Below, piece by piece: positions 1,942-15,999 of a stretch of 64,000 nucleotides of DNA (the first letter of the stretch is position 1; every line of letters begins with the position of its first letter). This DNA comes from an uncultured Chloroflexia bacterium (lineage in GTDB: Bacteria > Chloroflexota > Limnocylindria > Limnocylindrales > CSP1-4). The notes beneath the pieces are model-generated. The model made no database searches, was not told where the DNA came from, and saw nothing but the letters and a program-made list of their open reading frames with translations. A program made the position numbers and the translations under genes. The DNA is taken from the NCBI GenBank assembly GCA_963703575.1, contig CAVPEU010000008.1, forward strand, positions 193,880 to 257,879, in the 5' to 3' direction.

Positions 1942-2538
1942 TCAGGGGATCAGGGCCGCGACCGCGCGGTCCATCTCGTCCCTGGGCAGCGCCCCGATCC
2001 GGATCTCGCGGATCCGGCCGTCGGCGCCGATGAAGAAGTGGGTCGGGATGCCCAGCGTCCGGTACGTGCCGGCGATCGCCGTGTTCTGGTCGACGACGAT
2101 GGGGAACGTCAGGCTGGCCCGCCCCGCGTACCCGGCGACGTCCGATGCGGGCTCGTTGATGAACACGGCCAGCACGACCAGGCCCTGGTCCCTGTACCTC
2201 TGGTAGGTGGCCTCCACGTCGGGCGCCTCGGCCCGGCAGTCCGGGCACCAGGACGCCCCGAACGTCAGCCACATGGGCTTGCCCGCGTAGTCCGCGAGCG
2301 AGACCGTCCTGCCGTCGTAGGTCGTGCCGCTGAAGCCCGGGGGCAGGGCGCCGACCGCCGGGGCGGTGCCTGCCACGTCGCCGGCAAGGTCCACCTTGGT
2401 GAAGCCGCTGGTGTCGGGGCCGCTGACCAGGAAGGCCACGACCCCGATCACGACGGCCGTGACGGCGATCACCACGATCGTCTGCAGCCGCCCAGCCCTG
2501 CGGCCGGAGGGCGGGGCGACGATGCCCGCAGCGCTCAT
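1942..2538 (-). CDS. resA: TlpA/ResA-family thiol-disulfide oxidoreductase (cytochrome c maturation)
   Basis: N-terminal TM anchor and thioredoxin fold with WCPDC active site. Sits directly between ccsA and the cytochrome gene. Confidence 0.8.
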   Translation of the reverse strand: MSAAGIVAPPSGRRAGRLQTIVVIAVTAVVIGVVAFLVSGPDTSGFTKVDLAGDVAGTAPAVGALPPGFSGTTYDGRTVSLADYAGKPMWLTFGASWCPDCRAEAPDVEATYQRYRDQGLVVLAVFINEPASDVAGYAGRASLTFPIVVDQNTAIAGTYRTLGIPTHFFIGADGRIREIRIGALPRDEMDRAVAALIP

Positions 2539-2566
2539 CCGGATCGCTCCCTTCGTCCCCGGGGGG

Positions 2567-3451: not shown

Positions 3452-3465
3452 GTCGTGGTTCTCCC

Positions 3466-5001
3466 TTAGGCCCGCGCGGGCGCCTGGAGCGCCGAGCGGA
3501 TGTCGTTCACGAGGCTCTCGAACTCGGTGCCGAGCGCCGCGTCGCGGCGCCCGAGGCTTGCCACCGCCAGCACCGCCCCACCGTTGGGCCGCGCGGCGAT
3601 CCGCGCCCAGACCCGGCGATGCGGCAGGAAGAAGGTGATGACGAAGCCGGTGAACAGGAGGAATGCGCCCAGCCAGACCAGCACCACGCCGGGATCGCGT
3701 GCGACGTTGAGGCCCGTGAACTTGCTCTCGCGGTCGAACGTGAACGTCAGGCCTGCGGCCGTGGCCGCCGTGCCCTGGTCCAGCACCTGGGTGGCGACCG
3801 GCGTGCTGCCGGTCGATCCGTACAGCTCCACTTGCACCTGGCCGGGCTTGATCTTGGCGTCGCCACTGCCCAGCGTCCCGACGACCCAGGCGACGTAGTC
3901 CGTGCCCGGGATGGCGATCGAGCCGACGGGCCGATCGTCACCGGTCGTGCGCCAGGCCAGCGGCACGCCGTCGGACAGGAGCGTGTTGCCCTTGGCGTCC
4001 TTGACCGTCATCACGGCCGCCGAGCCGAAGAAGGCCTGGTAGAAGCTCGTGTCGCCGTAGCGGAGCGGGTCGTTGACCCGGATCGTGTGGCGCGCGACCT
4101 CGCTGCCGTCCTTGTACAGGACGACCTGGCTCGCGTAGTCCTCGGGGGCGCCGGTGGCCGGGTAGTAGCTGTCCGTGAAGTCGATGAGCTGGAGGCTCAG
4201 CCCCTGCTCGGCCGCGACCGGAAGGGTGCTGCCCTCGGCGATCGTGAAGCTGCTGTCGCGGTAGCCGAAGGTGCTGCCGACGACCGCACCGGCGAGGATC
4301 ACGACCAGCGCGAGGTGGCCGGCCAGCGAAGCGAACGGCGCCCATCGGAAGCGGTCCGCGTACAGGTGGATCGTGCCGTCGTCCAGGCTCGCCGGCCGGT
4401 ACCGGCGACCGCGCAGGACGCCCTGGACGATCTCGAGCGTCTCGGCCGGCGTGTGCCGGACGACGATGGCCTCGTGCTGCGGCGCGTGCTCGAAGAAGGC
4501 CGGCCCGACGTCCACGCGGGGCTTCGTGGCCGTGCGCCACATGCCCGGCACGCGGTGGACGGAGCAGGCGACGAGGCTGATCGTCAGCGCCGCCACCAGC
4601 ACCCGGAAGATCACCGAGTTGAAGATCTGGAACAGCTGGAGCGCGTCGAACAGGCCGCTCACGTTGCTGTACCGCAGGTCGGGCGTCACCGCTCCGATCA
4701 CCGGCAGCGAGTGCAGCCAGCCCACGACCGGGACCGACATCGGCCCGATCTGCTTGAGCCAGCTCGACTTCGCGTCGGGATCGCTCATGACGCCCGGAGC
4801 CGCCTGGATGACCAGGGAGCCGACCAGCCCCAGCACCGCGAGGGCGAGGATGAGGACCATGGCGACCCGCATCGAGGTCAGGAGGTGCCACAGTCCTTCC
4901 AGCGCCCAGTCGACGCGGTCCATCAGGCCGTGGCCGGCCTCCACCGTCGCGGCCTGTGGGACCGTCGGCGGGAGCGGCCGGGTTCGAACTTCGTGGGCCA
5001 T
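3466..5001 (-). CDS. resB: Cytochrome c biogenesis protein ResB/Ccs1
   Basis: About 510 aa with N-terminal TM helices, a large soluble domain and a C-terminal TM segment. Immediately upstream of ccsA, the canonical System II pairing. Confidence 0.8.
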   Translation of the reverse strand: MAHEVRTRPLPPTVPQAATVEAGHGLMDRVDWALEGLWHLLTSMRVAMVLILALAVLGLVGSLVIQAAPGVMSDPDAKSSWLKQIGPMSVPVVGWLHSLPVIGAVTPDLRYSNVSGLFDALQLFQIFNSVIFRVLVAALTISLVACSVHRVPGMWRTATKPRVDVGPAFFEHAPQHEAIVVRHTPAETLEIVQGVLRGRRYRPASLDDGTIHLYADRFRWAPFASLAGHLALVVILAGAVVGSTFGYRDSSFTIAEGSTLPVAAEQGLSLQLIDFTDSYYPATGAPEDYASQVVLYKDGSEVARHTIRVNDPLRYGDTSFYQAFFGSAAVMTVKDAKGNTLLSDGVPLAWRTTGDDRPVGSIAIPGTDYVAWVVGTLGSGDAKIKPGQVQVELYGSTGSTPVATQVLDQGTAATAAGLTFTFDRESKFTGLNVARDPGVVLVWLGAFLLFTGFVITFFLPHRRVWARIAARPNGGAVLAVASLGRRDAALGTEFESLVNDIRSALQAPARA

Positions 5002-5013
5002 TCCGGCGACCTC

Positions 5014-5781
5014 CTACAGGCCGAACGGCGACCCGAGGGTCGCCAGCCGGCCGAGCGTGTTGGTGAGCATCAGCACGCCGACGGTCACGAGCAGCAGGCC
5101 CGTGACCATGGACACGGCATGGTTGTGGCGGCCGACCCAGGACAGCCGTCGGGAGACCCAGGAGGCGCCCAGGGCAACCGCCAGGAACGGGACCGCGAGA
5201 CCGGCCGCGTAGGCGACCAGGAGGACCGTCCCCTGGAGGACGCTCGCGGTCGCGGTGGCCAGCCCGAGGATCCCGCCCAGGATCGGGCCGATGCATGGGC
5301 TCCAGCCCGCCGCGAACAGCGTCCCGAACGCGAGCGAGCGCCCGTAGCCCGGTCTGCCGTTGCCGCCCGCGAGGGTGGCGACCGCGGAGCCCCCGTTGCC
5401 GCCGGCCATCACGAGCCCGCCGGCCATGGTGGGCATCAGGCGGGTGTCGCGCCACAGCGCCCGGACGTTTATCAGGCCCGCGACCTGGAGGCCGAGGAAC
5501 ACGAGGAGCGCGCCGCCGGCCATGTTCATCGTGCGCCGGTCGAGCACCAGGCCGATCGCGCCGACGGCGGCGTAGAAGGCGACGAACACCAGCGAGAAGC
5601 CGAGCACGAACGCGAGCCCGTGGAAGAAGGCGGTGCGGCGGCCGGCGGTGCCCTCGCCGGTCGCGCCGACCATGTAGCTGATGTACGCCGGCACGAGCGG
5701 GAGGCAGCACGGGGACGCGAACGACACCACGCCGCCGGTGAAGGCGATCGCGAGGCCGAGCGCGCTGCCCAGGTCCGTCAT
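5014..5781 (-). CDS. ccdA: Cytochrome c-type biogenesis protein CcdA (DsbD-like membrane thiol-disulfide transporter)
   Basis: Six-TM protein with paired Cys motifs (SPCCLPLVP, WSPCIGP). The real start is the internal MTDLGS methionine; the 5' extension of the reported ORF overlaps the upstream TPR gene in another frame. The start ATG overlaps that gene's stop (ATGA). Confidence 0.8.
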   Translation of the reverse strand: MTDLGSALGLAIAFTGGVVSFASPCCLPLVPAYISYMVGATGEGTAGRRTAFFHGLAFVLGFSLVFVAFYAAVGAIGLVLDRRTMNMAGGALLVFLGLQVAGLINVRALWRDTRLMPTMAGGLVMAGGNGGSAVATLAGGNGRPGYGRSLAFGTLFAAGWSPCIGPILGGILGLATATASVLQGTVLLVAYAAGLAVPFLAVALGASWVSRRLSWVGRHNHAVSMVTGLLLVTVGVLMLTNTLGRLATLGSPFGL

Positions 5782-6566
5782 GGCTGGGTGCTTGCCGCCG
5801 GGGAGGCCACGGGAGAGGGCGCCGGGCTGGCGGCGGGGGACGCGGCCGGCGAGGCTGCGCCCGACGGGGCACCCGACGCGTCCGGCAGCATCGAGGCGGC
5901 GGCCAGCGAGTCGAGGTGCGACTGTACGGTCTTCGCGAGCTGGGATGTCGGGTCGAGCGCGATGACCTTGTTCCACTCGCGCTGGACACCGGCCCAGTCG
6001 GGGGTCTGCTGGTTCAGGTACAGGAAGCCGAGATCGTAGTGCACCTCGACGTTCTTGGGCTCGATGGCGACGACCTGCTGCCAGGTCTTCTCGGCCGACG
6101 TCAGGTCGCCGAGATTGAAGCTCACGGCGCCCCGGGCGAGGAGCGCCTGGATGTTTTTCGGGTCGATCGCGAGCGCCTTGTCCAGCCACTGGCCGGCGAC
6201 GTTGTACTGGGTGCCGGCGTAGTACTCGTCCGCGAGGGCGAGCAGGGTGGCGGTGTCGTTCGGGTTGGCCGCGAGCTTCTCCATCAGGCCCGCGACCTTG
6301 GCCTCGTCGATCGTCGGGGCAGAGGGTGACGCCTGGGCGGCGACGGCGTTCGTCCCCGTCGCACCGCCGCCGCCGAGCGTGAAGGCGGCGAAGGCGATCC
6401 CGAGCACGACCGCGATGGCCGCCCCGCCCAGGACGATCTTCTTCCACGGACCGCCGTCCCGCGCCCGGGAGGCGGGTTCCGGGGCGACGGCTCCGGCGAG
6501 CGGCTTCGCCCGGTGCGCCCGCTCCTTCGCGTCGGACCGCATGTCCCGGTGCGCGCTGGGGGTCAC
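5778..6566 (-). CDS. Membrane-anchored TPR-repeat protein (CcmH/NrfG-like cytochrome maturation accessory)
   Basis: Single TM helix (KKIVLGGAAIAVVLGIAFAAF), TPR-like repeats and a Pro/Ala/Ser-rich C-terminal tail. First gene of the ccs operon. Confidence 0.6.
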   Translation of the reverse strand: MTPSAHRDMRSDAKERAHRAKPLAGAVAPEPASRARDGGPWKKIVLGGAAIAVVLGIAFAAFTLGGGGATGTNAVAAQASPSAPTIDEAKVAGLMEKLAANPNDTATLLALADEYYAGTQYNVAGQWLDKALAIDPKNIQALLARGAVSFNLGDLTSAEKTWQQVVAIEPKNVEVHYDLGFLYLNQQTPDWAGVQREWNKVIALDPTSQLAKTVQSHLDSLAAASMLPDASGAPSGAASPAASPAASPAPSPVASPAASTQP

Positions 6567-6594
6567 GGACGCGTAGAGCGCCTCCAGGTCGTCG

Positions 6595-7062
6595 TCATCG
6601 GGCTCGAGGGCTCGGCTCGGTCTCGGACTCGAGCTTGGTCTCGGGCTCGGCCCCCGTCTCGGGAGCGTCAGCCACGGCCGCGGCCGTGGCTGCGACGAGC
6701 TCGTTCGGGCGCGCAGGTGCCGCTGGAAGGATGTCCCGGCGGGCCGGAGGTGTCGCCGGCCCGCCGGGATCGACCCTCGGCGGCCTCGTCGGGCTCCTGA
6801 GGGCTGAGCCCCCGAGGCCGACTGGGTCGGTCAATTGGAGATACGCCGCATCGAGCGCCGCCGCCTGGGCGTGGGCCCAGCCGCGGATGCTCGAGGGCGC
6901 CGCCGCGAGGTACTCGCTCACGGCTTCGTGGGTGGTGTCGACGTCTTCGGGCGCGGCGCTGGGCGGCAGCCCGAGTCGCGCGAGCAGCTCGTTCTCCGCT
7001 GCGGCGCGGCCGCTGGGGGGCAGGGTGGGCGCGGTCATCCGCGGGATTCCCCGGGGACGCAC
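6595..7062 (-). CDS. Hypothetical low-complexity protein
   Basis: ORF only, Ala/Pro-rich, no recognisable domain. Positioned upstream of the ccs operon on the same strand. Confidence 0.25.
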   Translation of the reverse strand: MRPRGIPRMTAPTLPPSGRAAAENELLARLGLPPSAAPEDVDTTHEAVSEYLAAAPSSIRGWAHAQAAALDAAYLQLTDPVGLGGSALRSPTRPPRVDPGGPATPPARRDILPAAPARPNELVAATAAAVADAPETGAEPETKLESETEPSPRAR

Positions 7063-7292: not shown

Positions 7293-8366
7293 TCACGGGG
7301 CGAGGACCGCCGCGCCGTCGTGGCCGACGCCGTGGCAGGTGAGCGTGCAGGTGCCGGTCGTGGCGTCGTAGGCGATCGGCAACCCGTTGTACTGCACCAC
7401 GTCCGGCGCGAACTTCACCAGGCCGCGGGTGTCGCCGCTGGTCCCGTGGAGGTTGGAGTGGCACTCCGCGCACAGGGCGTTCCCCTCGCCGCCACCAGGA
7501 ACGTCGATGTCGGTGCCGCCGCTGCCGTAGGCGCCGATGCTCTGCAGGTGGAAGCCGTGCTTCGGGAAGTTGGTCCCGGTCGAAGTCCCCGTCGTGTCCT
7601 CGATGGCGGCCTGCTGCGCACCCGAGTGGCAGCTGTAGCAGAGGCCGAAGTCGGCGGCGCGGTAGGCCTCCCCGCTGAGTCGCAGTGGGCTCGCCCGGTA
7701 CACGCTGGACAGCAGGTACGGGTTCGACGCACGGTGCGAGGCGTGACATGAGGCGCAGACGTCGCTGGTCAGGCCGCTGACGATGTGCGGTGATGTCGGG
7801 TCCACGTTGGCGGACAGGCCGAGCAGCATCGGCCCTGCCAGGGCCTCGGGTGATGGTGATGCGCCCTGGGCGGCCGGAGCGACGCTCGACGATGGATCCG
7901 GGGATCCCGACGACGGCGCGGAGGACGGCTGGTCCACGATCGCGCCCGGGTCCGGCGAGGGCGACGGATCCACGACCGGCGAGGGCGACGGATCCACGAC
8001 CGGCGACGGCGACGGATCCACGACCGGCGACGGCGACGGATCCACGACCGGCGACGGCGACGGATCCACGACCGGCGACGGCGACGGATCCACGACCGGC
8101 GACGGGGAGTCCGAAGCCGTCGGTTCGGGGGCCGGCGAGGGGGAGTCCGTCGGGCTCGCCACCGGCGACGTCGCCGAGGGATCCGGTGTCGGATCGGTGG
8201 CCGACACAGCCGGCACCGCAGGCGCGAACGTCGCGAGAGCGGCAGCCGCCACCAGCCACACTCCGAAGAGCGGGCCTGCGCGGCGGGTGATCCCTGCGTT
8301 CACGTTCGTGGGACGTCCTCTGGTGTGTGGGTTCGGACGGATCTCCCGGCTGGAGGCGTCCCCCAC
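7293..8366 (-). CDS. Secreted tetrahaem c-type cytochrome with Pro/Ser-rich (VDPSPSP)n linker
   Basis: Signal-peptide-like N-terminus (RRAGPLFGVWLVAAAALATFAPAVPAVSA) and a long PS-rich linker with six perfect VDPSPSP repeats. C-terminal domain has CASCH, CYSCH, CAECH and CTLTCH (CxxxCH). Confidence 0.7.
   Translation of the reverse strand: MGDASSREIRPNPHTRGRPTNVNAGITRRAGPLFGVWLVAAAALATFAPAVPAVSATDPTPDPSATSPVASPTDSPSPAPEPTASDSPSPVVDPSPSPVVDPSPSPVVDPSPSPVVDPSPSPVVDPSPSPVVDPSPSPDPGAIVDQPSSAPSSGSPDPSSSVAPAAQGASPSPEALAGPMLLGLSANVDPTSPHIVSGLTSDVCASCHASHRASNPYLLSSVYRASPLRLSGEAYRAADFGLCYSCHSGAQQAAIEDTTGTSTGTNFPKHGFHLQSIGAYGSGGTDIDVPGGGEGNALCAECHSNLHGTSGDTRGLVKFAPDVVQYNGLPIAYDATTGTCTLTCHGVGHDGAAVLAP
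7955..8101. repeat. Tandem repeat, 21 bp x 7, in-frame within the cytochrome gene
   Basis: Direct reading: ggcga(c/g)ggcgacggatccacgacc repeated head-to-tail; encodes the VDPSPSP linker. Confidence 0.9.
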
Positions 8367-8434: not shown

Positions 8435-9833
8435 CTAGTTGCCGGGGGTCGGCAGGGGGCCGAGGTACGTGCCGGACGTCACGGTGCCCGTCGGGTCGTG
8501 GCAGAGCTGGCAGGTCCCACGGTTGTTGACCTTGAGCAGGCGGCTGTCGCTGGACACGACGCCGCTCGGGTCCTTGTACGTACTTGAGTTCGAGCCCGTC
8601 ATCAGCGCGTTCGAGCCGTGCTGGACATGGCACTGCTCGCAGCCGACGCGGGTCGTCCCGTGCTTGATCATGAACGTCGTGTCCGCGGAGTTGGCCGCGA
8701 GCGACGACGCCGTGAGGCTCTGGGTCGGGGCGGTTCCGGTGACCGTGCTGACGCCGTCGTACCGGGTGTGGCACTGGACGCACCACGCGGTCATCAGGCC
8801 GCCCTTGTTGCTCAGGCTGGACTGGGCGACCGGCAGTGGCAGGGCCGCCCCGGAGATCGGGTCGGTCGTCTTGCCGGCCGTCGCCAGGTCAGCGTTGTAC
8901 TGCGCGATCTCGGTGGTGTTGACCGGATACCGGAACGAGTACTGGAGGCCGTTGGCGTTGGTGTAGGTCTGGGTCTTGCTGATCCAGCCCGTGTTCATCG
9001 GGTCAGCGGGCGGGAGCGCGGCGCTGGTGGTCCAGGCCAGCGTGACCCCGGTCGGATCCCACTTGTAGCGCCAGTAGTCGCCATCGTGTTGCCCACGACG
9101 CCGGACGCCAGCCCGTCGGTGCTGGGCCGGATCGTGTAGTTGCGGAGGCCGGTGTACGCGGTGTCCTGGACCTGCACGCCACCGCTGTTGGTGACCTTGT
9201 AGGTCCCCGCCGTCGCCGTCAGGCTCGGAGCGGTCTGGAGGATCCGGTACTGCCCGTTCCCGTGCGGGTTGTGGCAGTTCGCGCACTCGAGGTCGACCGT
9301 CGCGCCGACGCCGCTGTTGACGGCGCCGTTGCCCCAGACCGTGCCGGTCCCGGCATGGGTCGAGGTCACCGGCTGACCCGGTGGGTGCCGGGGAGCGGCT
9401 GGACGTGGCCGATATTCCGGACGTGACCGCCGATCGTGTACGAGAGCCGCGCCGGGTTGGCGGAGTCGATCAGCGCGTAGCTGAAGCCGCCGCCCCGGAG
9501 TGCGCCCAGGACGGCGCCGGTGGCGCTCGCCGGGTCGTACTGCACGCCATGGACGACGTCGGCCGTCGCCTTGGTGCCGTTGTGGCAGTCCAGGCACAGG
9601 TTCGGCAGATCGTTCTTGAGCAGGCCCTCGGCCGTCGCCGTATGCGCTCTGTGGCATCCCGCACACGTGTCGGCGGTCAGCCCTGGGGTCCCGGTTCCGT
9701 TGTTGATGGCCATCTGGTGTGGACCACCGTCAGCGAGCACCGGCAGCGCGGCAACGAACAGCCAGAGGGCGCCGCCTGCAAAGAGGAGGGCGAATTTCCT
9801 CACTGTCATTACCTCAAGACGTGGCATGGATAG
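8435..9833 (-). pseudogene. Hexahaem c-type cytochrome gene broken by two frame changes (pseudogene or sequencing frameshifts)
   Basis: Three overlapping minus-strand ORFs (9366..9893, 8995..9666, 8435..9286) each carry CxxCH sites (CAGCH, CLDCH / CANCHNPH / CVQCH, CEQCH, CQLCH). The first has a signal peptide (MTVRKFALLFAGGALWLFVAALPVLA). Frames switch near 9375 and near 9085. Confidence 0.5.
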
Positions 9834-9894
9834 GATCGCCTGCGCTGCAGGCGTCATCGTTGTCCGCGGCTCCACCTCCCTCACTCCGTGCATG

Positions 9895-10956
9895 TCAGTA
9901 GCTCCAGACCTGGAGCCGGTCGTTGCCCCAGTCGGCGACGTAGACTCGGCCTCGGCCGTCGACGGCGATGCCGTTCGGAAATGCCATGAATCCGTCGTCG
10001 CTGCCCTTCAGGCCGAAGGCGTTGAGATACGTTGGACCCCGGTCGCCGGCGGCCATCGGGGCGTAGGCCTGAATCCGCGAGGCGCTCGAGTCAGCCACCA
10101 GGATGTGCCCGTGATCGTCGATCGCGACCCCCACCGGCAGGCCGAGATTGCCGGCTGCCTCGCCGCGCTCCACGATCCCGACCTTGGTCCCCGAGGCGTC
10201 GTACACCAGCAGCCGGCCGTTGGCCGTGTCGGTGACGTACACGTTCCCGCTGCCGTCCACGACGATCCCGTTGGGGTGGTCGAGGGAGTCACCGGCGCCG
10301 ATGTCGCGGAGCAGCTTGCCGTCGGGCGAGAACTCGTGGATCCGCTGGCTGCCGCCCCCGACGTCCGCGATGTAGACGTCGCCCTGCTGGTCGAACCCGA
10401 TCCCCAGCGGCTGCCAGCCGGCAAGGGCCGCACCCTGGTCGAAGACCCGCACGAAGGTGCCGTCGGCGGCGTAGATGAACACGCCGGAGTCGTAGCGGTC
10501 CGTCGTCCACACCTCGCCGGTGACCGGGTTCACCGCCAGGTACAGCTGGTGGGCCTGGGCGAGCTTCGTCGCAGGCGGCTTGAGCACGCCAAGCGTCGCA
10601 CCCTGCCGGTCCAGCATCAGCGTGTCCAGGGACGAGCCGTTCTGGGTCACGTAGATCCGCGACCCGTCGGAGCTGACGGCCACGCCCTGTGGCTTCGAGA
10701 GGTCGTACAGCGCGTACTGGTAGGTGGGCATGGCCACCGGGCCGATCGGCACCGGCAGCTCGGTGATCGGCTTGCGGAACAGCAGGTACCAGATCGACAG
10801 GGACAGGAAGACCAGCAGCAGCAGGAACAGGAACAGCAGCAACCACTTTCGGCGCCGGGCGTCCTCGCGCTCCTCGGCCGGCGGGGCCGGCTGCCCGGGG
10901 GCGTCCGGCTGGTCCGCGCCCGGACTCGGCTCGCCCGGCAGAGCGCCCAGCGTCAT
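9895..10956 (-). CDS. Membrane-anchored NHL-repeat (six-bladed beta-propeller) protein
   Basis: TM helix (WLLLFLFLLLLVFLSLSIWYLLF) followed by repeated motifs of NHL repeats (GVAVSSDGSRIYV, GDVYIAD, NGIVVDGSGNVYVTD, GVAIDDHGHILVAD, NGIAVDGRGRVYVAD). Start taken at the internal MTLGALPG. Confidence 0.7.
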   Translation of the reverse strand: MTLGALPGEPSPGADQPDAPGQPAPPAEEREDARRRKWLLLFLFLLLLVFLSLSIWYLLFRKPITELPVPIGPVAMPTYQYALYDLSKPQGVAVSSDGSRIYVTQNGSSLDTLMLDRQGATLGVLKPPATKLAQAHQLYLAVNPVTGEVWTTDRYDSGVFIYAADGTFVRVFDQGAALAGWQPLGIGFDQQGDVYIADVGGGSQRIHEFSPDGKLLRDIGAGDSLDHPNGIVVDGSGNVYVTDTANGRLLVYDASGTKVGIVERGEAAGNLGLPVGVAIDDHGHILVADSSASRIQAYAPMAAGDRGPTYLNAFGLKGSDDGFMAFPNGIAVDGRGRVYVADWGNDRLQVWSY

Positions 10957-10972
10957 GTCAGGGGAGTCCACC

Positions 10973-11956
10973 TCAGTTGCTCCCTTCCGCGCTCGGGGAC
11001 GGGACCACCGAGGGCACGGACGAGGCCGCCGCGTCGATGGCGCTGAGGCCGATCTGCGCCGACGCGTTGGCCGGATCGATGGCGAGCACCTGGCGGAAGT
11101 AGCTCGTGGCCGAAGTGTTGTCACCCTGCTGGGCCGCGATGAACCCGAGGCCGAGGAGGGCCTCGGACTTCATGGCGCCGGCGGTCAGCGGCCTGAGTGC
11201 GGCTGCCGCCTCATTCAGCCGCCCCTCGCAGAAGGCGGCCATGCCGGTCGCCCACGTGACGCCGTCCGGTTCGTGGAGGGCCGTATATGCCTCGGCGAGC
11301 TTCTGATACGGATCAGGCCAGCCTGTGGGCACGTAGGCGATGGCCAGGCGGAGCGCCGCGACGGCCTTGGTCGGGTCGCCCACCTTGATCTGCGCCGCGC
11401 CGAGCGAGTACAGCGCGTCGGCGTCGCCGGCGTCGATGGCGAGGGCCTTCTCAAGGCTCGTGACGGCGCCTGCTGCCTTGTCCTGTTGCAGCAGAACGGT
11501 CCCGAGCCAGTAGTACGCCTGCTCCAGCTGCGGGTCCGTGTCCGCGAACTCCCCCTTGCTGGCGGCGTCGATGAACTTCTGGAGGTCCGGGACCGCCAGG
11601 TCGGCCTGTCCGGACTGGACGTAGGCGATCGCTCGCCCGAGCAGCGCGGCCCGATCCCCTGCGTCGATCTTGAGCACCTCGGTGAACTGCGCGATCCCAT
11701 CCTCGAAGCGCTTCGCCGTGACGTAGGCCGCCGCGAGATGGTCGCGAGCCGCGATGTCGTTGGGGTTGGCCTGGACGGCCGCCTCCGCGGCGGTGACCGT
11801 GCGATCAGCGAAGGACGCGCCCGGATCGACGTGGCGGTCGTTCCAGTAGACGAGCACCATGGCCGGGATCCCGACGACGAGCGCGAGCCCGCAGATCAGG
11901 ATCAGCCGGTTCAGTGTTCGGTTCGAGATGGTCGTGGGACGAGCGACTCTCATCAT
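10973..11956 (-). CDS. Membrane-anchored TPR-repeat protein
   Basis: N-terminal TM helix (LILICGLALVVGIPAMVLVYW) followed by several TPR-like helical repeats. Start taken at MMRVARP. Confidence 0.6.
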   Translation of the reverse strand: MMRVARPTTISNRTLNRLILICGLALVVGIPAMVLVYWNDRHVDPGASFADRTVTAAEAAVQANPNDIAARDHLAAAYVTAKRFEDGIAQFTEVLKIDAGDRAALLGRAIAYVQSGQADLAVPDLQKFIDAASKGEFADTDPQLEQAYYWLGTVLLQQDKAAGAVTSLEKALAIDAGDADALYSLGAAQIKVGDPTKAVAALRLAIAYVPTGWPDPYQKLAEAYTALHEPDGVTWATGMAAFCEGRLNEAAAALRPLTAGAMKSEALLGLGFIAAQQGDNTSATSYFRQVLAIDPANASAQIGLSAIDAAASSVPSVVPSPSAEGSN

Positions 11957-12179
11957 GTGCGCTTCCTTGAGGCGGACGCCAGCGGGCGCGAACGCAGGCC
12001 ATCGGCGGACGCTGACGAACCTGAGCCCGGCTCCATGAGCAATCCTCGCCCGCGCAGGCGCGCGTTCCCATCCGTCAGGGGATAGAACTGCGATACAGGG
12101 CGGGGCGAGGACGCACCGGCGAGGCTGTATCGAGTGGCCCACGAAGGTCCCGTGGGACCGGGCCGGATGTCCTGTCGCG

Positions 12180-12704
12180 CTAGCTGCCCAGGCTCTGGCG
12201 AGGCGTCCGGAAGTCGCCGGGGACGTCCAGCTCGATCACGTGGCCCACTTCGCGCAGCGGGAAGCGGTCGAGGGGCCGGGGCGGCGGTCCGGCGAGGACG
12301 GTCCCGTCGAGCGCGAACGAGCCCTCGTGGCAGTAGCACCCGAAGCGGTGGTCGGCGGCCTCCCAACGGTAGGCGCACAGGGCGTGCGTGCAGCGCGGGT
12401 CGAAGGCGGTGACCTCGCCGCTGGCCTTCCTGACCAGCCAGGCCGAAGCATCCACGGAGCTGCCGCCCGACGCGAGCGTGAACTCGACCCTGGTCGGCGC
12501 GCCGACGACGAGCGTCGAGGGATCGAAGTCGACGGTGACGGTGACCGGCGGGGCGCTGCAGGCCTCGAGCAGCACGCCCAGGCCCCCGCCGCCGGCAAGC
12601 GCGCCGGCGCCCATCAGCAGCAGGACGCGGCGTCGCGGCAGCGGCGTCTCGCGGGGGTCAAAGGCCGGTTCGGGACAGTCGGGTCGGTGGTGGGCGTTTG
12701 CCAT
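12180..12704 (-). CDS. Rieske [2Fe-2S] iron-sulfur protein with Tat-type signal
   Basis: Twin-arginine-like N-terminus (PRRRVLLLMGAGALAGG). Rieske cluster boxes CTHALC and CYCHEGSF. No cytochrome b gene adjacent. Confidence 0.75.
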   Translation of the reverse strand: MANAHHRPDCPEPAFDPRETPLPRRRVLLLMGAGALAGGGGLGVLLEACSAPPVTVTVDFDPSTLVVGAPTRVEFTLASGGSSVDASAWLVRKASGEVTAFDPRCTHALCAYRWEAADHRFGCYCHEGSFALDGTVLAGPPPRPLDRFPLREVGHVIELDVPGDFRTPRQSLGS

Positions 12705-12770
12705 CGGGAAGAGCCTGGCAAAGGCGGGGGCTGTGGCCGCGGGGCCTGTGGGCTCCGGTTCGGTCTCCCC

Positions 12771-13532: not shown

Positions 13533-14222
13533 TCAGTCGCGGGGGCGCTCCTGGGTCGCGAAGCCCTGGCGGACGGCATAGGCGGCGGCCTGCACCCGGT
13601 TCGTCAGGTGCAGCTTCTCGAGGGCGTTGTGGACGTGGTTCTTGACGGTGCCCTCGGTGATGGTGAGCTGGTTCGCGATCTCCTTGTTGGACATGCCGTC
13701 GGCGACGAGCTGGAGGATCTCCGACTCGCGCCTCGTGAGCACGCTGTCCTGCGCCGGCGCCGGGTGACCGTGCGTCGGGATGCCGCCGGTCCGGAGCGCG
13801 TCGAGCAGCTTGCTGGCGACGGCCGGGGCGATCGGCGCCTCCCCGCGCATCACGCCACGAAGGTCGTCGAACAGCTGCTCGGGCCGGACGTTCTTGAGCA
13901 GGTAGCCGTTTGCGCCGGCCTTGATCGACTCGAACAGGTCGTCATCGTCCTCGGACACCGTGAGCATGACGATCGGCGTCGTGATCCCGGCCTGCCGGAT
14001 CGCGTTGACACCGTCCACGCCCGAGGAGCCGGGCATGTTCACGTCCATCACGACGATGTCGGGGCGCAGGATCCGTACCTTGTCCAGCGCGTCCCGCCCG
14101 TTCTCGCCCTCGCCGATGACCGTCATGTCGAACTGCGCGCTGATCAGGGTCGCGAGGGCCCGCCTGAACAGCGGCTGGTCATCGACCAGCAGAACCCTCA
14201 GCCTGGGTGGAACGTGTGCCAC
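13533..14222 (-). CDS. NarL/FixJ-family response regulator (receiver + LuxR-type HTH)
   Basis: Receiver domain (RVLLVDDQPLFRRAL...DIVVMDVNMPG) and C-terminal LuxR HTH (LTRRESEILQLVADGMSNKEIANQLTITEGTVKNHV). Start approximate (GTG near 14222), overlapping the kinase gene end. Confidence 0.8.
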   Translation of the reverse strand: MAHVPPRLRVLLVDDQPLFRRALATLISAQFDMTVIGEGENGRDALDKVRILRPDIVVMDVNMPGSSGVDGVNAIRQAGITTPIVMLTVSEDDDDLFESIKAGANGYLLKNVRPEQLFDDLRGVMRGEAPIAPAVASKLLDALRTGGIPTHGHPAPAQDSVLTRRESEILQLVADGMSNKEIANQLTITEGTVKNHVHNALEKLHLTNRVQAAAYAVRQGFATQERPRD

Positions 14223-15999
14223 GCGTGTCCTCTGCCTGGAGGTGGACGACGACACGTGTCCCCTCGTTCGGGGCAGTATGCACGTCGAGCGTTCCACCGA
14301 TCTGTTCGACCCGTTCTCGCATGGAGGCGAGGCCGAAGCCGCCCTCCATCGAGCTCGCGACGGTCGCAGGGTCGAAGCCCACGCCATCGTCCTCGATCGT
14401 CAGCGTCGTCACCGGCCCGCCGCACTCGATCCGGACCGCGACCCGCTGCGCGCCGGAATGCTTGCGCGTGTTCGTCAGGGCCTCCTGCACGACGCGGAGC
14501 AGCTGGACCTCGCTCCGTGGCGTGAGGGATTGCCGGGTGTCGCCGTCGCACGCGAAGCTGGCCGCGATTCCCGTCTGGCGGCTGTACTTGCGCAGGTAGT
14601 CGCGCAGCGACCCCTCCAGGCCGGCGTCCTCGCGAACCGTCTCGCGGAGGCCGAGGATGGCCTCGCGAACGTCCCCGTACGCCTCGTCGGCGATCCCGGC
14701 GATGTCCGAGAGCTCTTCGGCCATCAGGTGGCTGGCCTCGTCCTTGGCGCGTCCCTCGAGGGCCCGGAGACGGAGGTGGATGACCCCCAGGACCTGGGCC
14801 AGGCTGTCGTGCAGCTCCCGGGCGATCCGGTCCCGCTCCGCGTGGATCGTCCACTGCTCCTCGGCCTCGTGGAGCCTGGCGGTCCGGACGGCGATGGTGG
14901 CCATGTCCGCGAGGGCCCCGAGCAGGGAGCGCTCCGTCTCGCTGAACGGGCGCCCGGTGCGCACGACGCACAGCTCGCCGAGGGTTCCGTCCGGGCCCCG
15001 GAGGGGGCGGGCGGCCCACGCGCGCTCGTGCTCGCGCTCGGCGATGAGCAGCGGGCAGAGCGGGTTGCGCGGGTGCTGGGCGCGGTCGGACTGGTGGGCC
15101 ACGAGACACACGCTGCCGTCGTCGGCCACCGCGAGCCGGTCGCGAATCCCTGCGCTGGCGGCCTCCGCCGCGTCCGACAGGCAGACCACGGCCCGCTCCG
15201 CCCCGAGCAGCTCCCGGGCGTGGCGGGTGATCGTGTCGAGCACGTCCCCCAGGTCGGTGCGGCTGGTCAGCTGGAGCGCGACCTCGTACAGGGCCGCGTT
15301 CTCCCGCTCACGCCGGTGGAGGTCCGTGAGGGTGAGGCCCAGCTGGGCGGCCCCCGCGATCTCGCCGGAGATATCGGTGAGGGCGGCCACGGAGATGTCC
15401 GGCTCGACGGGCGGGTAGAAGGCCACGCGCAGGTGCCCGATCCGGCCGCCACCGCGGATCAACGGGAGGTCCAGGATGCCGGTGTCCACGGCGGGCCGGG
15501 TCGTGTATCGCGGGACGTCGAGGCCGGGGTCGGCCGGCTCGTCCAGGATCGCGGCGAGCCAGGCGAGGCCCGGAGCGAGCGGTGCAGGCCGTCGGACCGT
15601 CAGGGGCTCGCCGCCGGTGGTCCGGATGGTGACGATGCCGGCCAGGGCGCCCGTCTGGGTCACGACGCGGTCCAGCGCCTGTTCCAGGAGGTCCGGCAGC
15701 ACGTGAGTGCCCCGGACGGCGGAGCTCACCTCGTGGGTGACGGTGAGATCCCTGTTCTGGGCAACGAGCTGCTTCTCGCTCCGGTCGAGGTAAACCGAGA
15801 CGATCGTCGCGAACACCACGATGGCGCCGCCCATGATCATGGCCGACAGGAGGTGCGCGGCGTCGCCGGTGACCTGGGGATCGAGGAACAGGAACCGGAC
15901 AAGCTCGAACACCCAGACGAAGACGACGGGCAGGATCATCGTCGCCCACTTCAGGCGATTCAGGTCGCGCGCACCCCTGGGCTCAGACATCCTCCGCAC
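14179..15999 (-). CDS. Sensor histidine kinase with TM helices, GAF domain, HisKA_3 and HATPase_c domains
   Basis: Two N-terminal TM helices and a GAF-like central region. H-box ERDRIARELHDSLAQ is typical of NarL-partner kinases; C-terminal ATPase motifs (DDGVGFD, GGFGLASMRER). Confidence 0.8.
   Translation of the reverse strand: MRRMSEPRGARDLNRLKWATMILPVVFVWVFELVRFLFLDPQVTGDAAHLLSAMIMGGAIVVFATIVSVYLDRSEKQLVAQNRDLTVTHEVSSAVRGTHVLPDLLEQALDRVVTQTGALAGIVTIRTTGGEPLTVRRPAPLAPGLAWLAAILDEPADPGLDVPRYTTRPAVDTGILDLPLIRGGGRIGHLRVAFYPPVEPDISVAALTDISGEIAGAAQLGLTLTDLHRRERENAALYEVALQLTSRTDLGDVLDTITRHARELLGAERAVVCLSDAAEAASAGIRDRLAVADDGSVCLVAHQSDRAQHPRNPLCPLLIAEREHERAWAARPLRGPDGTLGELCVVRTGRPFSETERSLLGALADMATIAVRTARLHEAEEQWTIHAERDRIARELHDSLAQVLGVIHLRLRALEGRAKDEASHLMAEELSDIAGIADEAYGDVREAILGLRETVREDAGLEGSLRDYLRKYSRQTGIAASFACDGDTRQSLTPRSEVQLLRVVQEALTNTRKHSGAQRVAVRIECGGPVTTLTIEDDGVGFDPATVASSMEGGFGLASMRERVEQIGGTLDVHTAPNEGTRVVVHLQAEDTRGTRSTQAEGSAGR

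What the first reader, a model, noticed from the sequence alone, without database searches (positions are those of the whole stretch)
12180..12704. Stand-alone Rieske protein with Tat signal and no cytochrome b partner
Rieske proteins normally sit next to cytochrome b (bc1/b6f), or next to the AioA or dioxygenase large subunits. Here the neighbours are TPR, NHL and multihaem cytochrome genes. This suggests the Rieske protein acts as a high-potential electron-transfer module of the cytochrome cluster, or belongs to an unrecognised oxidase whose catalytic partner is the NHL propeller.
Basis: inference. Interest (0 to 1): 0.5.

Follow-up and report, generated by a model that had tools for sequence, protein, structure and literature searches.

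The report
Lipid-anchored Rieske protein without cytochrome b
This gene encodes an exported, probably lipid-anchored Rieske iron-sulfur protein that appears to descend from a subunit of a Rieske/cytochrome b complex; in dozens of soil and freshwater Chloroflexota it has no cytochrome b gene nearby and sits in a fixed place between a two-component regulator and a multihaem-cytochrome gene cluster.

Summary
The ORF at 12180-12704(-) is a real Rieske [2Fe-2S] gene with a twin-arginine signal. It is the only Rieske motif in the window, and no cytochrome b gene lies anywhere in the 64 kb.

The gene belongs to a compact family in Chloroflexota class Limnocylindria. In 61 species-level loci the order is always GAF histidine kinase, LuxR regulator, pseudo-receiver protein, Rieske, TPR, NHL, multihaem cytochromes, cytochrome c maturation genes. 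None has cytochrome b within 10 kb.

The nearest relatives outside the family are membrane-anchored Rieske subunits, each followed directly by cytochrome b6. Two homologous clusters still hold cytochrome b. In L086 it sits exactly where the window has a 224-bp gap. In L088 a canonical Rieske/cytochrome b pair coexists with the lipobox-type Rieske.

The family's derived traits are an invariant lipobox-like cysteine in place of the transmembrane anchor, and changed cluster-loop motifs.

My best reading is a membrane-tethered one-electron carrier of the multihaem module. Its potential is probably low (below about +200 mV), not high. The role is inferred, not shown. No evidence points to the NHL propeller as a catalytic partner. 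I class it as a new variant of a known kind; the closest precedent is cyanobacterial PetC3.

The parts
12180..12704 (-). Rieske [2Fe-2S] protein, 174 aa, Tat signal plus lipobox-like cysteine; mature domain about residues 50-174
   Evidence: Pfam PF00355 E=1.1e-8. There are 271 homologues. AlphaFold2 gives pLDDT about 90 for residues 51-165, and Foldseek hits Rieske domains with TM 0.6-0.68.
12627..12635 (-). Twin-arginine motif R24-R25-R26 of the Tat signal
   Evidence: R24 and R25 are invariant in alignment A1. A hydrophobic segment spans residues 27-45.
12558..12569 (-). Lipobox-like L46-E-A-C49, with an invariant Cys at the end of the hydrophobic region
   Evidence: C49 is invariant. The motif [LIV]-x-[AGS]-C is present in all 57 complete family members and in none of the cytochrome b-linked relatives.
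12375..12392 (-). Cluster-binding box I, C105-T-H107-A-L-C110
   Evidence: Read directly from the sequence. C105, T106, H107 and C110 are invariant in A1. Relatives next to cytochrome b mostly read CTHLGC.
12327..12338 (-). Cluster-binding box II, C123-Y-C125-H126, followed by E-G128-S-F130
   Evidence: Read directly from the sequence. The proline of the canonical CPCH is replaced throughout the family. Gly and Phe occupy the Ser/Tyr tuning positions (alignment; PMC12954380).
12771..13205 (-). Pseudo-receiver protein (144 aa), cytoplasmic, directly upstream of the Rieske gene
   Evidence: Present on the same strand in 59 of 59 loci. hhalign against the neighbouring regulator's receiver domain gives probability 71%, E=3.6e-5, with DD replaced by Y-S and the phospho-Asp replaced by an invariant Glu. 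It is fused to the Rieske protein in P0137/L086.
13533..14387 (-). NarL/LuxR-type response regulator; the true start is probably near 14225
   Evidence: Pfam Response_reg plus GerE. Found in 54 of 54 loci, median identity 81%. The orthologue in L001 is 230 aa.
14179..15999 (-). Histidine kinase: two transmembrane helices with a roughly 16-residue loop, GAF, HisKA_3, HATPase
   Evidence: Pfam, hydropathy. Found in 49 of 49 loci.
11957..12179 (.). A 224-bp gap between the Rieske and TPR genes. In L086 this position holds cytochrome b, subunit IV::cytochrome c and further cytochromes. In other species it holds IS elements and toxin-antitoxin genes.
   Evidence: No promoter-like or terminator-like consensus site was found.
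10973..11956 (-). Membrane-anchored TPR protein (327 aa)
   Evidence: Pfam TPR families. Colinear with the L001 orthologue. Found in 52 of 54 loci. One transmembrane segment.
9895..10971 (-). Membrane-anchored NHL beta-propeller protein (358 aa)
   Evidence: Pfam NHL E=2e-32. Found in 47 of 47 loci.
8435..9893 (-). Six-haem cytochrome (MHCa), split over three reading frames in this window
   Evidence: 2+1+3 CXXCH motifs. Colinear with the intact 462-aa L001 protein in three frames. Intact as a 512-aa protein in the nearest relative L085.
7293..8366 (-). Cytochrome MHCb: signal/anchor, Pro/Ser-rich repeat linker, three CXXCH motifs plus one CX3CH
   Evidence: Found in 39 of 41 loci.
5778..7062 (-). 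CcmH/NrfG-like TPR protein. It is one 433-aa gene in L001 and lies in two frames here.
   Evidence: Pfam TPR_CcmH_CycH. tblastn with the L001 protein.
1942..5781 (-). System II cytochrome c maturation genes: CcdA (5014-5781), ResB (3466-5001), CcsA/ResC (2567-3451), ResA-like thioredoxin (1942-2538)
   Evidence: Pfam DsbD_TM, ResB, Cytochrom_C_asm, AhpC-TSA/Redoxin.
219..1937 (-). Ten-haem, membrane-anchored cytochrome with an NrfH/NapC-like N-terminal part; candidate quinol dehydrogenase of the cluster
   Evidence: 10 CXXCH motifs. Pfam Cytochrom_NNT. NCBIfam NrfH E=2.6e-13. PDB NrfH 2j7a_C E=3.3e-6. One transmembrane segment.

Best explanation
The gene encodes a bc/b6f-type Rieske [2Fe-2S] protein. 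It is exported folded by the Tat pathway and is then most likely cleaved at an invariant lipobox-like cysteine (Cys49), leaving it lipid-anchored on the outer face of the cytoplasmic membrane.

Origin. It descends from the iron-sulfur subunit of a menaquinol-type Rieske/cytochrome b6 complex that was already wired to a multihaem-cytochrome, NHL and TPR envelope module. That arrangement survives in relatives L086 and L088. In the Limnocylindria lineage of this window the following has happened:
- the cytochrome b genes are gone from the locus;
- the transmembrane anchor has become a lipoprotein signal;
- the two loops that normally dock on cytochrome b have changed (CTHLGC to CTH[A/G]LC, and CPCH to CxCH).

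Proposed mechanism (inferred). The Rieske protein now works as a membrane-tethered one-electron carrier of moderate potential, predicted below about +200 mV. It would shuttle electrons between a membrane quinol-linked haem protein, with the NrfH-like decahaem cytochrome at 219-1937 as the candidate, and the wall-spanning multihaem cytochromes. The direction of flow is unknown. The neighbouring GAF histidine kinase/NarL-type regulator probably controls the whole set. The pseudo-receiver protein encoded just upstream is a dedicated cytoplasmic partner; it could be an export or assembly helper, or a regulatory link.

Shown: gene identity, motifs, fold, family, conserved gene order, absence of cytochrome b from these loci, and cytochrome b-containing homologous clusters.
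Inferred: lipidation, redox potential, carrier role, partners, direction of electron flow, regulation.
For: Identity and fold:
- Rieske domain, conserved ligands and disulfide pair.
- Confident Rieske fold.

Family and gene order:
- The family is compact: only 15 clusters at 50% identity reach E<=1e-30 among 1.84 billion representatives. It is confined to Limnocylindria-type Chloroflexota.
- Gene order is fixed: pseudo-receiver 59/59, regulator 54/54, kinase 49/49, TPR 52/54, NHL 47/47, MHCa 43/43, all on the same strand.
- The order persists in the more distant lipobox Rieske clusters L088 and L089, about 40% identical.

Relation to cytochrome b:
- No cytochrome b in the window or in L001-L065, whereas 18 of 19 out-family homologues have cytochrome b6 immediately downstream.
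- L086 is a homologous cluster: TPR 32% identity (E=2e-35), NHL 36% (4e-54), MHCa 41-48%, regulator 48%, Rieske 50%. It carries cytochrome b, subunit IV::cytochrome c and three more cytochromes between the Rieske and TPR genes.
- L088 has a canonical Rieske/cytochrome b/decahaem set and also the pseudo-receiver plus lipobox Rieske set. In that cluster cytochrome b has its own adjacent Rieske subunit.

Derived traits:
- The lipobox-like cysteine is present in 57 of 57 complete family members and absent from all cytochrome b-linked relatives. Box motifs are also altered.
- In an NJ tree the lipobox Rieske proteins form one clade, with the L086 cytochrome b-linked Rieske as sister (weak support of about 50%).

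Candidate quinol-linked partner:
- An NrfH-like decahaem cytochrome lies in the cluster.

Precedents:
[quoted passage not shown] 2016).
- The Uet cluster of Ca. Tenderia combines multihaem cytochromes, NHL, TPR and CcsAB with a non-haem carrier, a cupredoxin (bioRxiv 10.1101/2022.05.06.490989).
Against: - No experiment or expression data exist for any family member.
- The lipobox usually has Glu or Asp at position -2 (LLEAC, LLDAC), which is not canonical. Lipidation is therefore a prediction.
- IS elements and toxin-antitoxin genes, some on the opposite strand, sit between the Rieske and TPR genes in L014, L015, L021 and L062. The Rieske gene is therefore probably not co-transcribed with the cytochrome genes.
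- The Rieske protein (median identity 61%) and the pseudo-receiver (65%) evolve at rates closer to the regulatory genes (73-81%) than to the TPR, NHL and cytochrome genes (42-52%). This fits a regulatory role at least as well as a carrier role.
- A centre near +100 to +200 mV among low-potential haems would be a thermodynamic sink. The window cluster holds no obvious class I cytochrome c to reoxidise it.
- All loci were retrieved through the Rieske gene. Whether the cytochrome cluster also exists without it is unknown.
- A cytochrome b elsewhere in the genome is not excluded.
- In this window MHCa and the CcmH-like TPR gene are frameshifted.
Confidence: 0.45

Rival explanations
1. It is still an ordinary iron-sulfur subunit of a Rieske/cytochrome b complex whose cytochrome b genes lie elsewhere in the genome, as cyanobacterial petC is separate from petBD. 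Its place next to the multihaem genes would be a historical leftover.
For: - The closest out-family relatives are all cytochrome b-linked subunits.
- It retains the disulfide pair and the GPPPRPL proline loop.
- The best PDB and NCBIfam similarities are to b6f/bc subunits.
- Homologous clusters L086 and L088 contain cytochrome b.
- The rest of the genome could not be searched.
Against: - The invariant lipobox-like cysteine replaces the transmembrane helix plus hinge that every cytochrome b-linked relative has.
- The docking-loop motifs are changed across the whole family.
- In L088, cytochrome b has its own canonical Rieske gene next to it, while the lipobox Rieske sits separately with the pseudo-receiver and TPR/NHL genes.
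- All curated Rieske-subunit models score far below their cut-offs: PetC 36.9 against 250, proteobacterial 27.4 against 97.4, actinobacterial QcrA 18.9 against 275.
Confidence: 0.15
2. It is an extracytoplasmic redox sensor or feedback element of the adjacent two-component system. In this reading the kinase has almost no external loop. The Rieske lipoprotein reports the redox state of the envelope or of the electron chain. The pseudo-receiver couples to the regulator. The output is transcription of the multihaem cluster.
For: - Kinase, regulator, pseudo-receiver and Rieske form the most conserved, uninterrupted block (54/54, 49/49, 59/59; identities 61-81%), and mobile-element insertions fall just after the Rieske gene.
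- The kinase has two transmembrane helices with a loop of about 16 residues, so it has no sensor domain of its own outside the membrane.
- The pseudo-receiver is homologous to the regulator's receiver domain and is fused to the Rieske protein in L086.
- PetC3 has been linked to cell-envelope homeostasis rather than to b6f function (PMC12341915).
Against: - I know of no precedent for a Rieske protein as a co-sensor of a kinase.
- The kinase has cytoplasmic GAF domains that could sense on their own.
- After export and signal cleavage the Rieske domain and the cytoplasmic pseudo-receiver are on opposite sides of the membrane.
- In L086 the fused protein sits where the working subunit of a cytochrome b complex is normally encoded.
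Confidence: 0.15
3. It serves cytochrome c maturation or envelope redox upkeep for the cluster, for example by keeping haem or thiols reduced. It would then not be part of the respiratory electron path.
For: - A complete System II set (CcdA, ResB, CcsA, ResA) and a CcmH/NrfG-like TPR protein belong to the same conserved cluster.
- MHCb has an unusual CX3CH site.
Against: - No known System II pathway uses a Rieske protein (own knowledge).
- The Rieske gene lies at the opposite end of the cluster from the maturation genes.
- Its ancestry is respiratory.
Confidence: 0.05
4. This is the first reader's second idea: the Rieske protein is the small subunit of an unrecognised oxidase, with the NHL propeller or a molybdopterin protein as its catalytic partner, by analogy with AioB/AioA.
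For: - NHL is a constant neighbour (47/47).
- The top Foldseek hit is AioB.
- A molybdopterin gene lies 9 kb away.
Against: - Sequence similarity to AioB is marginal (E=0.05) against 1e-11 for Rieske/cytochrome b subunits.
- The fold search does not discriminate between Rieske subfamilies.
- The molybdopterin protein is a cytoplasmic selenocysteine formate dehydrogenase with NuoE/F partners.
- NHL propellers occur in multihaem clusters that lack any Rieske protein (bioRxiv 10.1101/2022.05.06.490989).
- A TPR gene separates the Rieske and NHL genes.
Confidence: 0.04

Closest known systems
PetC3 of Synechocystis sp. PCC 6803 (PDB 5CXM), a plasma-membrane Rieske lipoprotein
   Same: - It is a small Rieske protein of b6f ancestry.
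[quoted passage not shown] 2016).
- Sequence match E=1.2e-10; structural match TM 0.65.
- It also lacks the Ser/Tyr pair (CPCHGAEF in the alignment).
   Different: - It comes from a different phylum and is only about 30% identical. Common origin of the lipoprotein state is not shown.
- PetC3 keeps CPCH.
- PetC3 is not known to sit in a multihaem/NHL/TPR cluster or next to a pseudo-receiver and two-component system (own knowledge).
- Its measured potential of about +135 mV is from memory and was not checked here.
Iron-sulfur subunits of menaquinol-type Rieske/cytochrome b6 complexes (for example loci L067-L084, L086, Rieske 1 of L088; solved relatives Kustd1480 9RK3, Chlorobaculum 8HN2, Thermus 1NYK)
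   Same: - They are the best sequence relatives (E=1.5e-11 to 9RK3; 31-50% identity).
- They share the disulfide pair, the proline loop, the Tat signal and the spacing of the two boxes.
- They are the likely ancestors.
   Different: - They have an N-terminal transmembrane anchor plus hinge and no lipobox cysteine.
- Most read CTHLGC and CPCH.
- They are followed directly by cytochrome b.
- The window protein meets none of these three points.
Uet gene cluster of Candidatus Tenderia electrophaga (extracellular electron uptake)
   Same: The parts list is similar: several multihaem cytochromes, two NHL propeller proteins, CcsA/CcsB, an NrfG-like TPR protein, and one non-haem redox protein (bioRxiv 10.1101/2022.05.06.490989).
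   Different: - The non-haem carrier there is a cupredoxin (UetF), not a Rieske protein.
- The Uet cluster has an outer-membrane beta-barrel and belongs to a Gammaproteobacterium.
- Homology between the components of the two clusters was not tested here.
NrfH/NapC/CymA family of membrane-anchored quinol dehydrogenases
   Same: The ten-haem protein at 219-1937 has an N-terminal anchor and an NrfH-like haem domain. This gives the cluster a route to the quinone pool that does not need cytochrome b.
   Different: - Its scores are far below the equivalog cut-offs (50 against 134 bits).
- It carries about six additional haems.
- No known NrfH-type protein works with a Rieske protein (own knowledge).
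AioB, the Rieske subunit of arsenite oxidase
   Same: It is a small Tat-exported Rieske protein that does not work with cytochrome b. It is the top structural match.
   Different: - AioB is encoded next to AioA (own knowledge), and no AioA-like gene is present here.
- Sequence similarity is marginal (E=0.05).

Membership tests
Rieske [2Fe-2S] domain superfamily (PF00355) | Profile match above the curated cut-off | tested here: met
   35.3 bits against a cut-off of 20.3, E=1.1e-8.
Rieske [2Fe-2S] domain superfamily (PF00355) | Ligand motifs CxH ... CxxH | tested here: met
   C105, H107, C123 and H126 are invariant across the family.
Rieske [2Fe-2S] domain superfamily (PF00355) | Rieske fold | tested here: met
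   The AlphaFold2 domain has pLDDT about 90. Foldseek gives probability 1.0 for many Rieske structures.
Iron-sulfur subunit of a Rieske/cytochrome b complex (PetC, QcrA, bc1 ISP) | Cytochrome b gene adjacent or in the same locus | tested here: not met
   There is none in the 64-kb window or within 10 kb in L001-L065, whereas 18 of 19 out-family relatives have one directly downstream.
Iron-sulfur subunit of a Rieske/cytochrome b complex (PetC, QcrA, bc1 ISP) | Cytochrome b encoded anywhere in the same genome | not testable with these tools
Matching by ENA sample accession failed because those records are whole-sample assemblies.
Iron-sulfur subunit of a Rieske/cytochrome b complex (PetC, QcrA, bc1 ISP) | Uncleaved N-terminal transmembrane anchor followed by a hinge | tested here: not met
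   The hydrophobic stretch ends in an invariant lipobox-like L-x-[AG]-C, which all cytochrome b-linked relatives lack. Cleavage itself has not been shown.
Iron-sulfur subunit of a Rieske/cytochrome b complex (PetC, QcrA, bc1 ISP) | Disulfide cysteines and proline loop | tested here: met
   C110 and C125 are invariant, and the GPPPRPL loop is present.
Iron-sulfur subunit of a Rieske/cytochrome b complex (PetC, QcrA, bc1 ISP) | Canonical loop motifs CTHLGC and CPCH | tested here: not met
   The window reads CTHALC and CYCH. The proline is absent across the family.
Iron-sulfur subunit of a Rieske/cytochrome b complex (PetC, QcrA, bc1 ISP) | Score above the NCBIfam equivalog cut-offs | tested here: not met
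   PetC 36.9 against 250; Rieske_proteo 27.4 against 97.4; actinobacterial QcrA 18.9 against 275.
PetC3-type stand-alone Rieske lipoprotein | Tat signal ending in a lipobox cysteine | tested here: met
   By sequence pattern only: RR is invariant and Cys49 is invariant. Position -2 is usually Glu or Asp, which is atypical.
PetC3-type stand-alone Rieske lipoprotein | Actual lipid modification and membrane location | not testable with these tools
   This needs biochemistry.
PetC3-type stand-alone Rieske lipoprotein | Common descent with cyanobacterial PetC3 | tested here: inconclusive
   phmmer E=1.2e-10. In a first NJ tree built with only a partial PetC3 sequence, PetC3 fell near the family, but without support values. 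The family's supported sister is a Chloroflexota cytochrome b-linked Rieske, which suggests independent origin.
PetC3-type stand-alone Rieske lipoprotein | Low midpoint potential | not testable with these tools
   Only predicted, from Gly128 and Phe130 at the Ser/Tyr tuning positions (PMC12954380).
AioB (arsenite oxidase small subunit) | Adjacent AioA molybdopterin subunit | tested here: not met
   The only molybdopterin gene is a selenocysteine formate dehydrogenase 9 kb away.
Rieske-type ferredoxin / dioxygenase component | Cytoplasmic, with no signal peptide and no disulfide pair | tested here: not met
   A Tat signal and the disulfide cysteines are present. PDB matches are E>=0.025.
Multihaem/NHL extracellular electron-transfer clusters (Uet-like) | Co-located multihaem cytochromes, NHL propeller, TPR and dedicated cytochrome c maturation genes | tested here: met
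   The arrangement is conserved in 61 loci.
Multihaem/NHL extracellular electron-transfer clusters (Uet-like) | Demonstrated electron exchange with an extracellular partner | not testable with these tools
   There are no cultures or expression data. The organisms are known only as metagenome-assembled genomes.

The most novel reading that the evidence does not exclude
A whole bacterial class would have turned the Rieske subunit of a cytochrome b complex into a free, lipid-anchored redox protein. It would work without cytochrome b in one of two ways. Either it is the link between an NrfH-type multihaem quinol dehydrogenase and wall-spanning cytochromes, which would be a new kind of quinol-to-outside (or outside-to-quinol) pathway in a likely single-membrane bacterium. 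Or, together with its pseudo-receiver partner, it is a redox-sensing device that reports electron flow to a two-component system. The homologous clusters L086, L088 and the window type look like stages of that transition, although the order of events is not established.
Probability: 0.3. Interest if true: 0.7.

Novelty: new variant of a known kind. Interest (0 to 1): 0.55.

Why it matters
Rieske proteins of the bc/b6f type are textbook partners of cytochrome b. The few exceptions (PetC3, AioB) are poorly understood.

- This family is large, conserved and always in the same gene context. It offers a clean system for asking what a bc-type Rieske centre does once freed from cytochrome b.
- Relatives show what look like intermediate states: a fused, cytochrome b-linked form in L086, both forms together in L088, and a cytochrome b-free form in the window.
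- The family belongs to Limnocylindria, a class for which many soil and freshwater MAGs were retrieved and whose respiratory and possible extracellular electron-transfer abilities are essentially unstudied.
- The constant pairing with a pseudo-receiver protein and a GAF kinase/NarL regulator points to a testable regulatory or assembly link.

The literature searches found no description of this cluster.

Tried and rejected
- Looking up the window's own protein (P0001) in the contig index: not on record.
- Finding a cytochrome b elsewhere in the same genome by matching ENA sample accessions of canonical Rieske hits (P0309) with those of family members (P0062). ERZ25039500 holds contigs of several organisms, so the match means nothing, and P0309 belongs to an unrelated diderm.
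- Nanowire-cytochrome idea for MHCa and MHCb (OmcS/OmcE-like): there is no sequence relative in the PDB, so it is neither supported nor excluded.
- Promoter and terminator consensus scan of 11800-13700: nothing found.
- Rfam on the whole window: only tRNA-Sec.
- The molybdopterin gene as an AioA-like partner: rejected. It is a selenocysteine formate dehydrogenase with NuoE/F and NuoG-N partners.
- The fold search does not separate Rieske subfamilies. AioB, b6f, PetC3 and ferredoxins all score alike, so it was not used for classification.
- The P0137 fusion (pseudo-receiver::Rieske) is a singleton. It is used only as supporting evidence for a link. The ORF is identical in an NCBI and a Logan assembly, but these may derive from the same reads.
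- The first bootstrap run timed out. A faster one gave weak support of about 50%, so the phylogeny is indicative only.
- Literature searches for Limnocylindria respiration or multihaem clusters found no description of this locus.
Full report
**1. The observation**

The window has 73.5% G+C. The ORF at 12180..12704(-) encodes 174 aa and shows strong coding composition, with GC3 of 0.92. It matches Pfam Rieske PF00355 above the cut-off.

Its motifs are C105-T-H-A-L-C110 and C123-Y-C-H126. These are the four cluster ligands plus the two disulfide cysteines typical of bc/b6f-type Rieske proteins. The N-terminus carries R24-R25-R26 followed by a hydrophobic stretch.

Pfam scans of every credible ORF of the 64 kb found no cytochrome b. 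A six-frame motif scan shows that this is the only Rieske motif in the window.

**2. The surroundings**

On the minus strand the order runs from about 16000 down to 219:

| Gene | Notes |
|---|---|
| Histidine kinase | two TM helices, about 16-residue loop, GAF, HisKA_3 |
| NarL/LuxR regulator | |
| 144-aa protein | no Pfam match; a pseudo-receiver |
| Rieske | |
| 224-bp gap | |
| TPR protein | membrane-anchored |
| NHL propeller | membrane-anchored |
| MHCa | six-haem cytochrome |
| MHCb | Pro/Ser-rich linker, 3 CXXCH + 1 CX3CH |
| CcmH/NrfG-like TPR protein | |
| CcdA, ResB, CcsA, ResA-like thioredoxin | System II cytochrome c maturation |
| Ten-haem cytochrome | membrane-anchored, NrfH-like N-terminal part |

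Upstream lie a selenocysteine formate dehydrogenase with NuoE/F-like and NuoG-N-like partners, tRNA-Sec, and SelD, SelA and SelB. This molybdoenzyme is cytoplasmic and is not an AioA-type partner for a Rieske protein.

**3. The family**

The protein has 271 homologues at E<=1e-3. The best 120 are 58-100% identical and 146-204 aa long.

A scan of species-representative genomes assigns the family to Chloroflexota annotated as Candidatus Limnocylindrales or uncultured Chloroflexia, many of them from one MAG series. A profile search of 1.84 billion representatives finds only 15 clusters at E<=1e-30, so the family is compact.

Within it the twin arginine, the six cluster and disulfide residues, and Cys49 are invariant. 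Cys49 closes a lipobox-like motif (LLEAC, LLAGC, LLDAC and similar) in all 57 family members with a complete N-terminus.

**4. Conserved gene order**

I ran tblastn with the window's proteins against 61 species-level loci. Each count is given over the loci with enough flanking sequence, and every hit is on the same strand as the Rieske gene.

| Neighbour | Loci with it |
|---|---|
| pseudo-receiver | 59 of 59 |
| regulator | 54 of 54 |
| kinase | 49 of 49 |
| TPR | 52 of 54 |
| NHL | 47 of 47 |
| MHCa | 43 of 43 |
| MHCb | 39 of 41 |

Median identities to the window fall into two groups. The regulator (81%), kinase (73%), pseudo-receiver (65%) and Rieske (61%) are well conserved. The TPR, NHL and cytochrome genes are only 42-52% identical.

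Where the Rieske-TPR distance is enlarged, the insert is an IS30- or IS110-type transposase, PIN or HipA-type toxin genes, or an extra seven-haem cytochrome. The Rieske gene is therefore probably transcribed with the pseudo-receiver rather than with the cytochrome genes. Its position has nonetheless been kept throughout the class.

**5. Origin**

Of the 19 out-family homologues found in the same scan, all 19 have a Tat motif followed by a transmembrane helix and hinge without a lipobox cysteine, and mostly read CTHLGC/CPCH. They come from Dehalococcoidia, Desulfobacterota, Fervidibacterota, Acidobacteriota and others. Eighteen of them have a cytochrome b6 gene starting within about 100 bp after the Rieske gene.

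The representative search turned up P0137, in which a pseudo-receiver domain is fused to such a canonical Rieske protein. Its locus L086 has 70.8% G+C and is a homologue of the window cluster:

| Component | Identity to window | E-value |
|---|---|---|
| regulator | 48% | |
| kinase | 36% | |
| pseudo-receiver | 36% | 5e-11 |
| Rieske | 50% | 5e-28 |
| TPR | 32% | 2e-35 |
| NHL | 36% | 4e-54 |
| MHCa | 41-48% | |

Between the Rieske and TPR genes, L086 carries cytochrome b6, a subunit IV::cytochrome c fusion, two further c-type cytochromes and a decahaem cytochrome. This is exactly where the window has a 224-bp gap.

A second relative, L088, has both arrangements in one cluster. A canonical Rieske, a full-length cytochrome b and a decahaem cytochrome sit between the kinase and the regulator. 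Further on come the pseudo-receiver, a lipobox Rieske, TPR, NHL and cytochromes. A third relative, L089, has the window's arrangement with a Rieske protein only about 40% identical.

In an NJ tree of the Rieske domain all lipobox proteins form one clade, with the L086 protein as sister. Bootstrap support is only about 50% on 106 columns.

Taken together, the lipobox Rieske proteins look like derivatives of the iron-sulfur subunit of a Rieske/cytochrome b complex that was already coupled to the multihaem/NHL/TPR module. L088 shows that the derivative is not simply the subunit of the neighbouring cytochrome b, which has its own.

**6. Properties**

AlphaFold2 models residues 51-165 with pLDDT of about 90 as a compact Rieske domain; the N-terminal 50 residues are disordered or helical, as expected for a signal. 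Foldseek matches Rieske domains of all subfamilies with similar scores, so the fold does not classify it further.

By sequence the best solved relatives are:
- Kustd1480 (9RK3, E=1.5e-11);
- PetC3 (5CXM, 1.2e-10);
- the Thermus Rieske (1NYK);
- b6f subunits.

AioB and dioxygenase ferredoxins score only E>=0.025. All curated NCBIfam Rieske-subunit models score far below their cut-offs.

The Ser and Tyr that raise Rieske potentials by hydrogen bonding (PMC12954380) correspond to Gly128 and Phe130 here (alignment). The cytochrome b-linked relatives share this state. According to PMC12954380 this goes with low-potential quinones and Rieske potentials below 200 mV. I therefore predict a moderate potential. 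'High-potential' holds only relative to typical multihaem cytochromes, and that comparison rests on general knowledge.

**7. The pseudo-receiver**

The 144-aa protein aligns by profile-profile comparison with the receiver domain of the neighbouring regulator (probability 71%, E=3.6e-5). The acidic pair DD is replaced by Y-[S/T/D], and the phospho-acceptor Asp by an invariant Glu. NCBIfam gives weak NarL/NarP-type hits.

It has no hydrophobic segment, so it is cytoplasmic. Its constant adjacency to the Rieske gene and its fusion to the Rieske protein in L086 argue for a direct functional link. Because the mature Rieske domain is outside the cell, that link must act either before export (assembly or Tat proofreading) or through regulation. 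Both are speculation.

**8. Mechanism**

The best-supported reading is a membrane-tethered, one-electron carrier that belongs functionally to the multihaem module. The NrfH-like decahaem protein would provide the connection to menaquinol that cytochrome b provides in L086 and L088. The GAF kinase/NarL regulator pair would control the system.

Precedents for the parts are:
- PetC3, a Rieske lipoprotein (PMC12341915);
- the Uet cluster of Ca. Tenderia, where multihaem cytochromes, NHL proteins, a TPR protein and CcsAB are joined by a cupredoxin (bioRxiv 10.1101/2022.05.06.490989).

Weak points are the separate transcription unit, the evolutionary rate closer to that of the regulatory genes, the lack of an obvious oxidant for the Rieske centre in the window cluster, and the absence of any experimental data. 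I give this reading 0.45.

The main rivals are a conventional subunit of a cytochrome b complex encoded elsewhere (0.15) and a redox-sensing role with the two-component system (0.15).

**9. Novelty**

Searches of the paper library found no description of this cluster or of a Rieske protein in Limnocylindria. Stand-alone Rieske lipoproteins are known (PetC3), and Rieske/cytochrome b complexes with multihaem subunits are known (for example in anammox bacteria, PMC12954380).

The new points are:
- a class-wide, cytochrome b-free, lipobox-type derivative;
- a fixed gene context with a pseudo-receiver partner;
- apparent intermediate states in related clusters.

I therefore classify it as a new variant of a known kind, with moderate interest (0.55).

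**10. Caveats**

- All loci were retrieved through the Rieske gene.
- The organisms are MAGs.
- In this window MHCa and the CcmH-like TPR gene are frameshifted, whereas they are intact in relatives. The nearest relative, L085 (Rieske 83% identical), has an intact MHCa. This may be assembly error.
- The rest of the genome could not be examined for cytochrome b.

Noticed in passing
window 8435-9893 (-) and 5778-7062 (-): The six-haem cytochrome gene is colinear with intact orthologues (462 aa in L001, 512 aa in L085) but is split over three reading frames, with junctions near 9379-9392 and 9083-9085. The CcmH-like TPR gene, a single 433-aa gene in L001, lies in two frames here. These are either assembly indels or recent decay; the Rieske gene itself is intact.
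   Followed up: partly
window 21497-23419 (-), 23764-29609, tRNA at 24888-24980 (+): A selenocysteine formate dehydrogenase has an in-frame TGA at 23159-23161 within the motif CNRT-U-HAPSVAGL. Next to it lie tRNA-Sec, SelD, SelA and SelB. The enzyme's N-terminal Fe-S domains form a separate gene (16154 to about 17200) downstream of a NuoE/F fusion (17194-19227).
   Followed up: partly
window 20862-21254 (+) and 21272-21451 (-): A PIN-domain toxin gene and a small neighbouring ORF are inserted within the formate dehydrogenase gene group. L001 has an RraB-like gene at the corresponding place.
   Followed up: no
L078, L080, L082, L083 (Desulfobacterota) and L081 (Leptospirales), Rieske ORFs ending near locus position 10219 (1771 in L081): An SdhB-like iron-sulfur domain is fused to the N-terminus of a membrane-anchored Rieske protein (421-446 aa). 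A cytochrome b6 gene follows directly.
   Followed up: no
Representative proteins P0165, P0175, P0195, P0210, P0217, P0225, P0233, P0243, P0246, P0258, P0264, P0269: These are proteins of 250-305 aa with two Rieske domains in tandem and a lipobox-like cysteine. They look like a separate group of double-Rieske lipoproteins. Their taxonomy and gene context are unknown.
   Followed up: no
L066 (Bacillota MAG), 5005-11385: A membrane-anchored canonical Rieske gene has no cytochrome b in the 2.3 kb downstream. Its neighbours are a multicopper-oxidase-like protein, a NapH-like Fe-S membrane protein and two anchored monohaem cytochromes c.
   Followed up: partly
L086 7433-9696 (-): Two radical SAM genes lie between the two-component system and the pseudo-receiver::Rieske/cytochrome b operon. 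They are absent from the window cluster.
   Followed up: no
window 7293-8366 (-), residues about 90-135 and 340: MHCb carries six tandem copies of DPSPSPVV, a plausible wall-spanning linker, and an unusual CX3CH site (CTLTCH). The CX3CH site may explain the dedicated NrfG/CcmH-like TPR protein in the cluster.
   Followed up: no
L037 10552-11625 (-) and L048 10593-11837 (+): In two species an extra seven-haem cytochrome, a paralogue of MHCa, is inserted between the Rieske and TPR genes, once on each strand.
   Followed up: partly
L088 14403-18434 (+): A 1343-aa protein has a long Pro/Thr/Ala-rich linker and seven CXXCH motifs, but no Pfam hit on record. It sits where MHCb lies in the window.
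   Followed up: no
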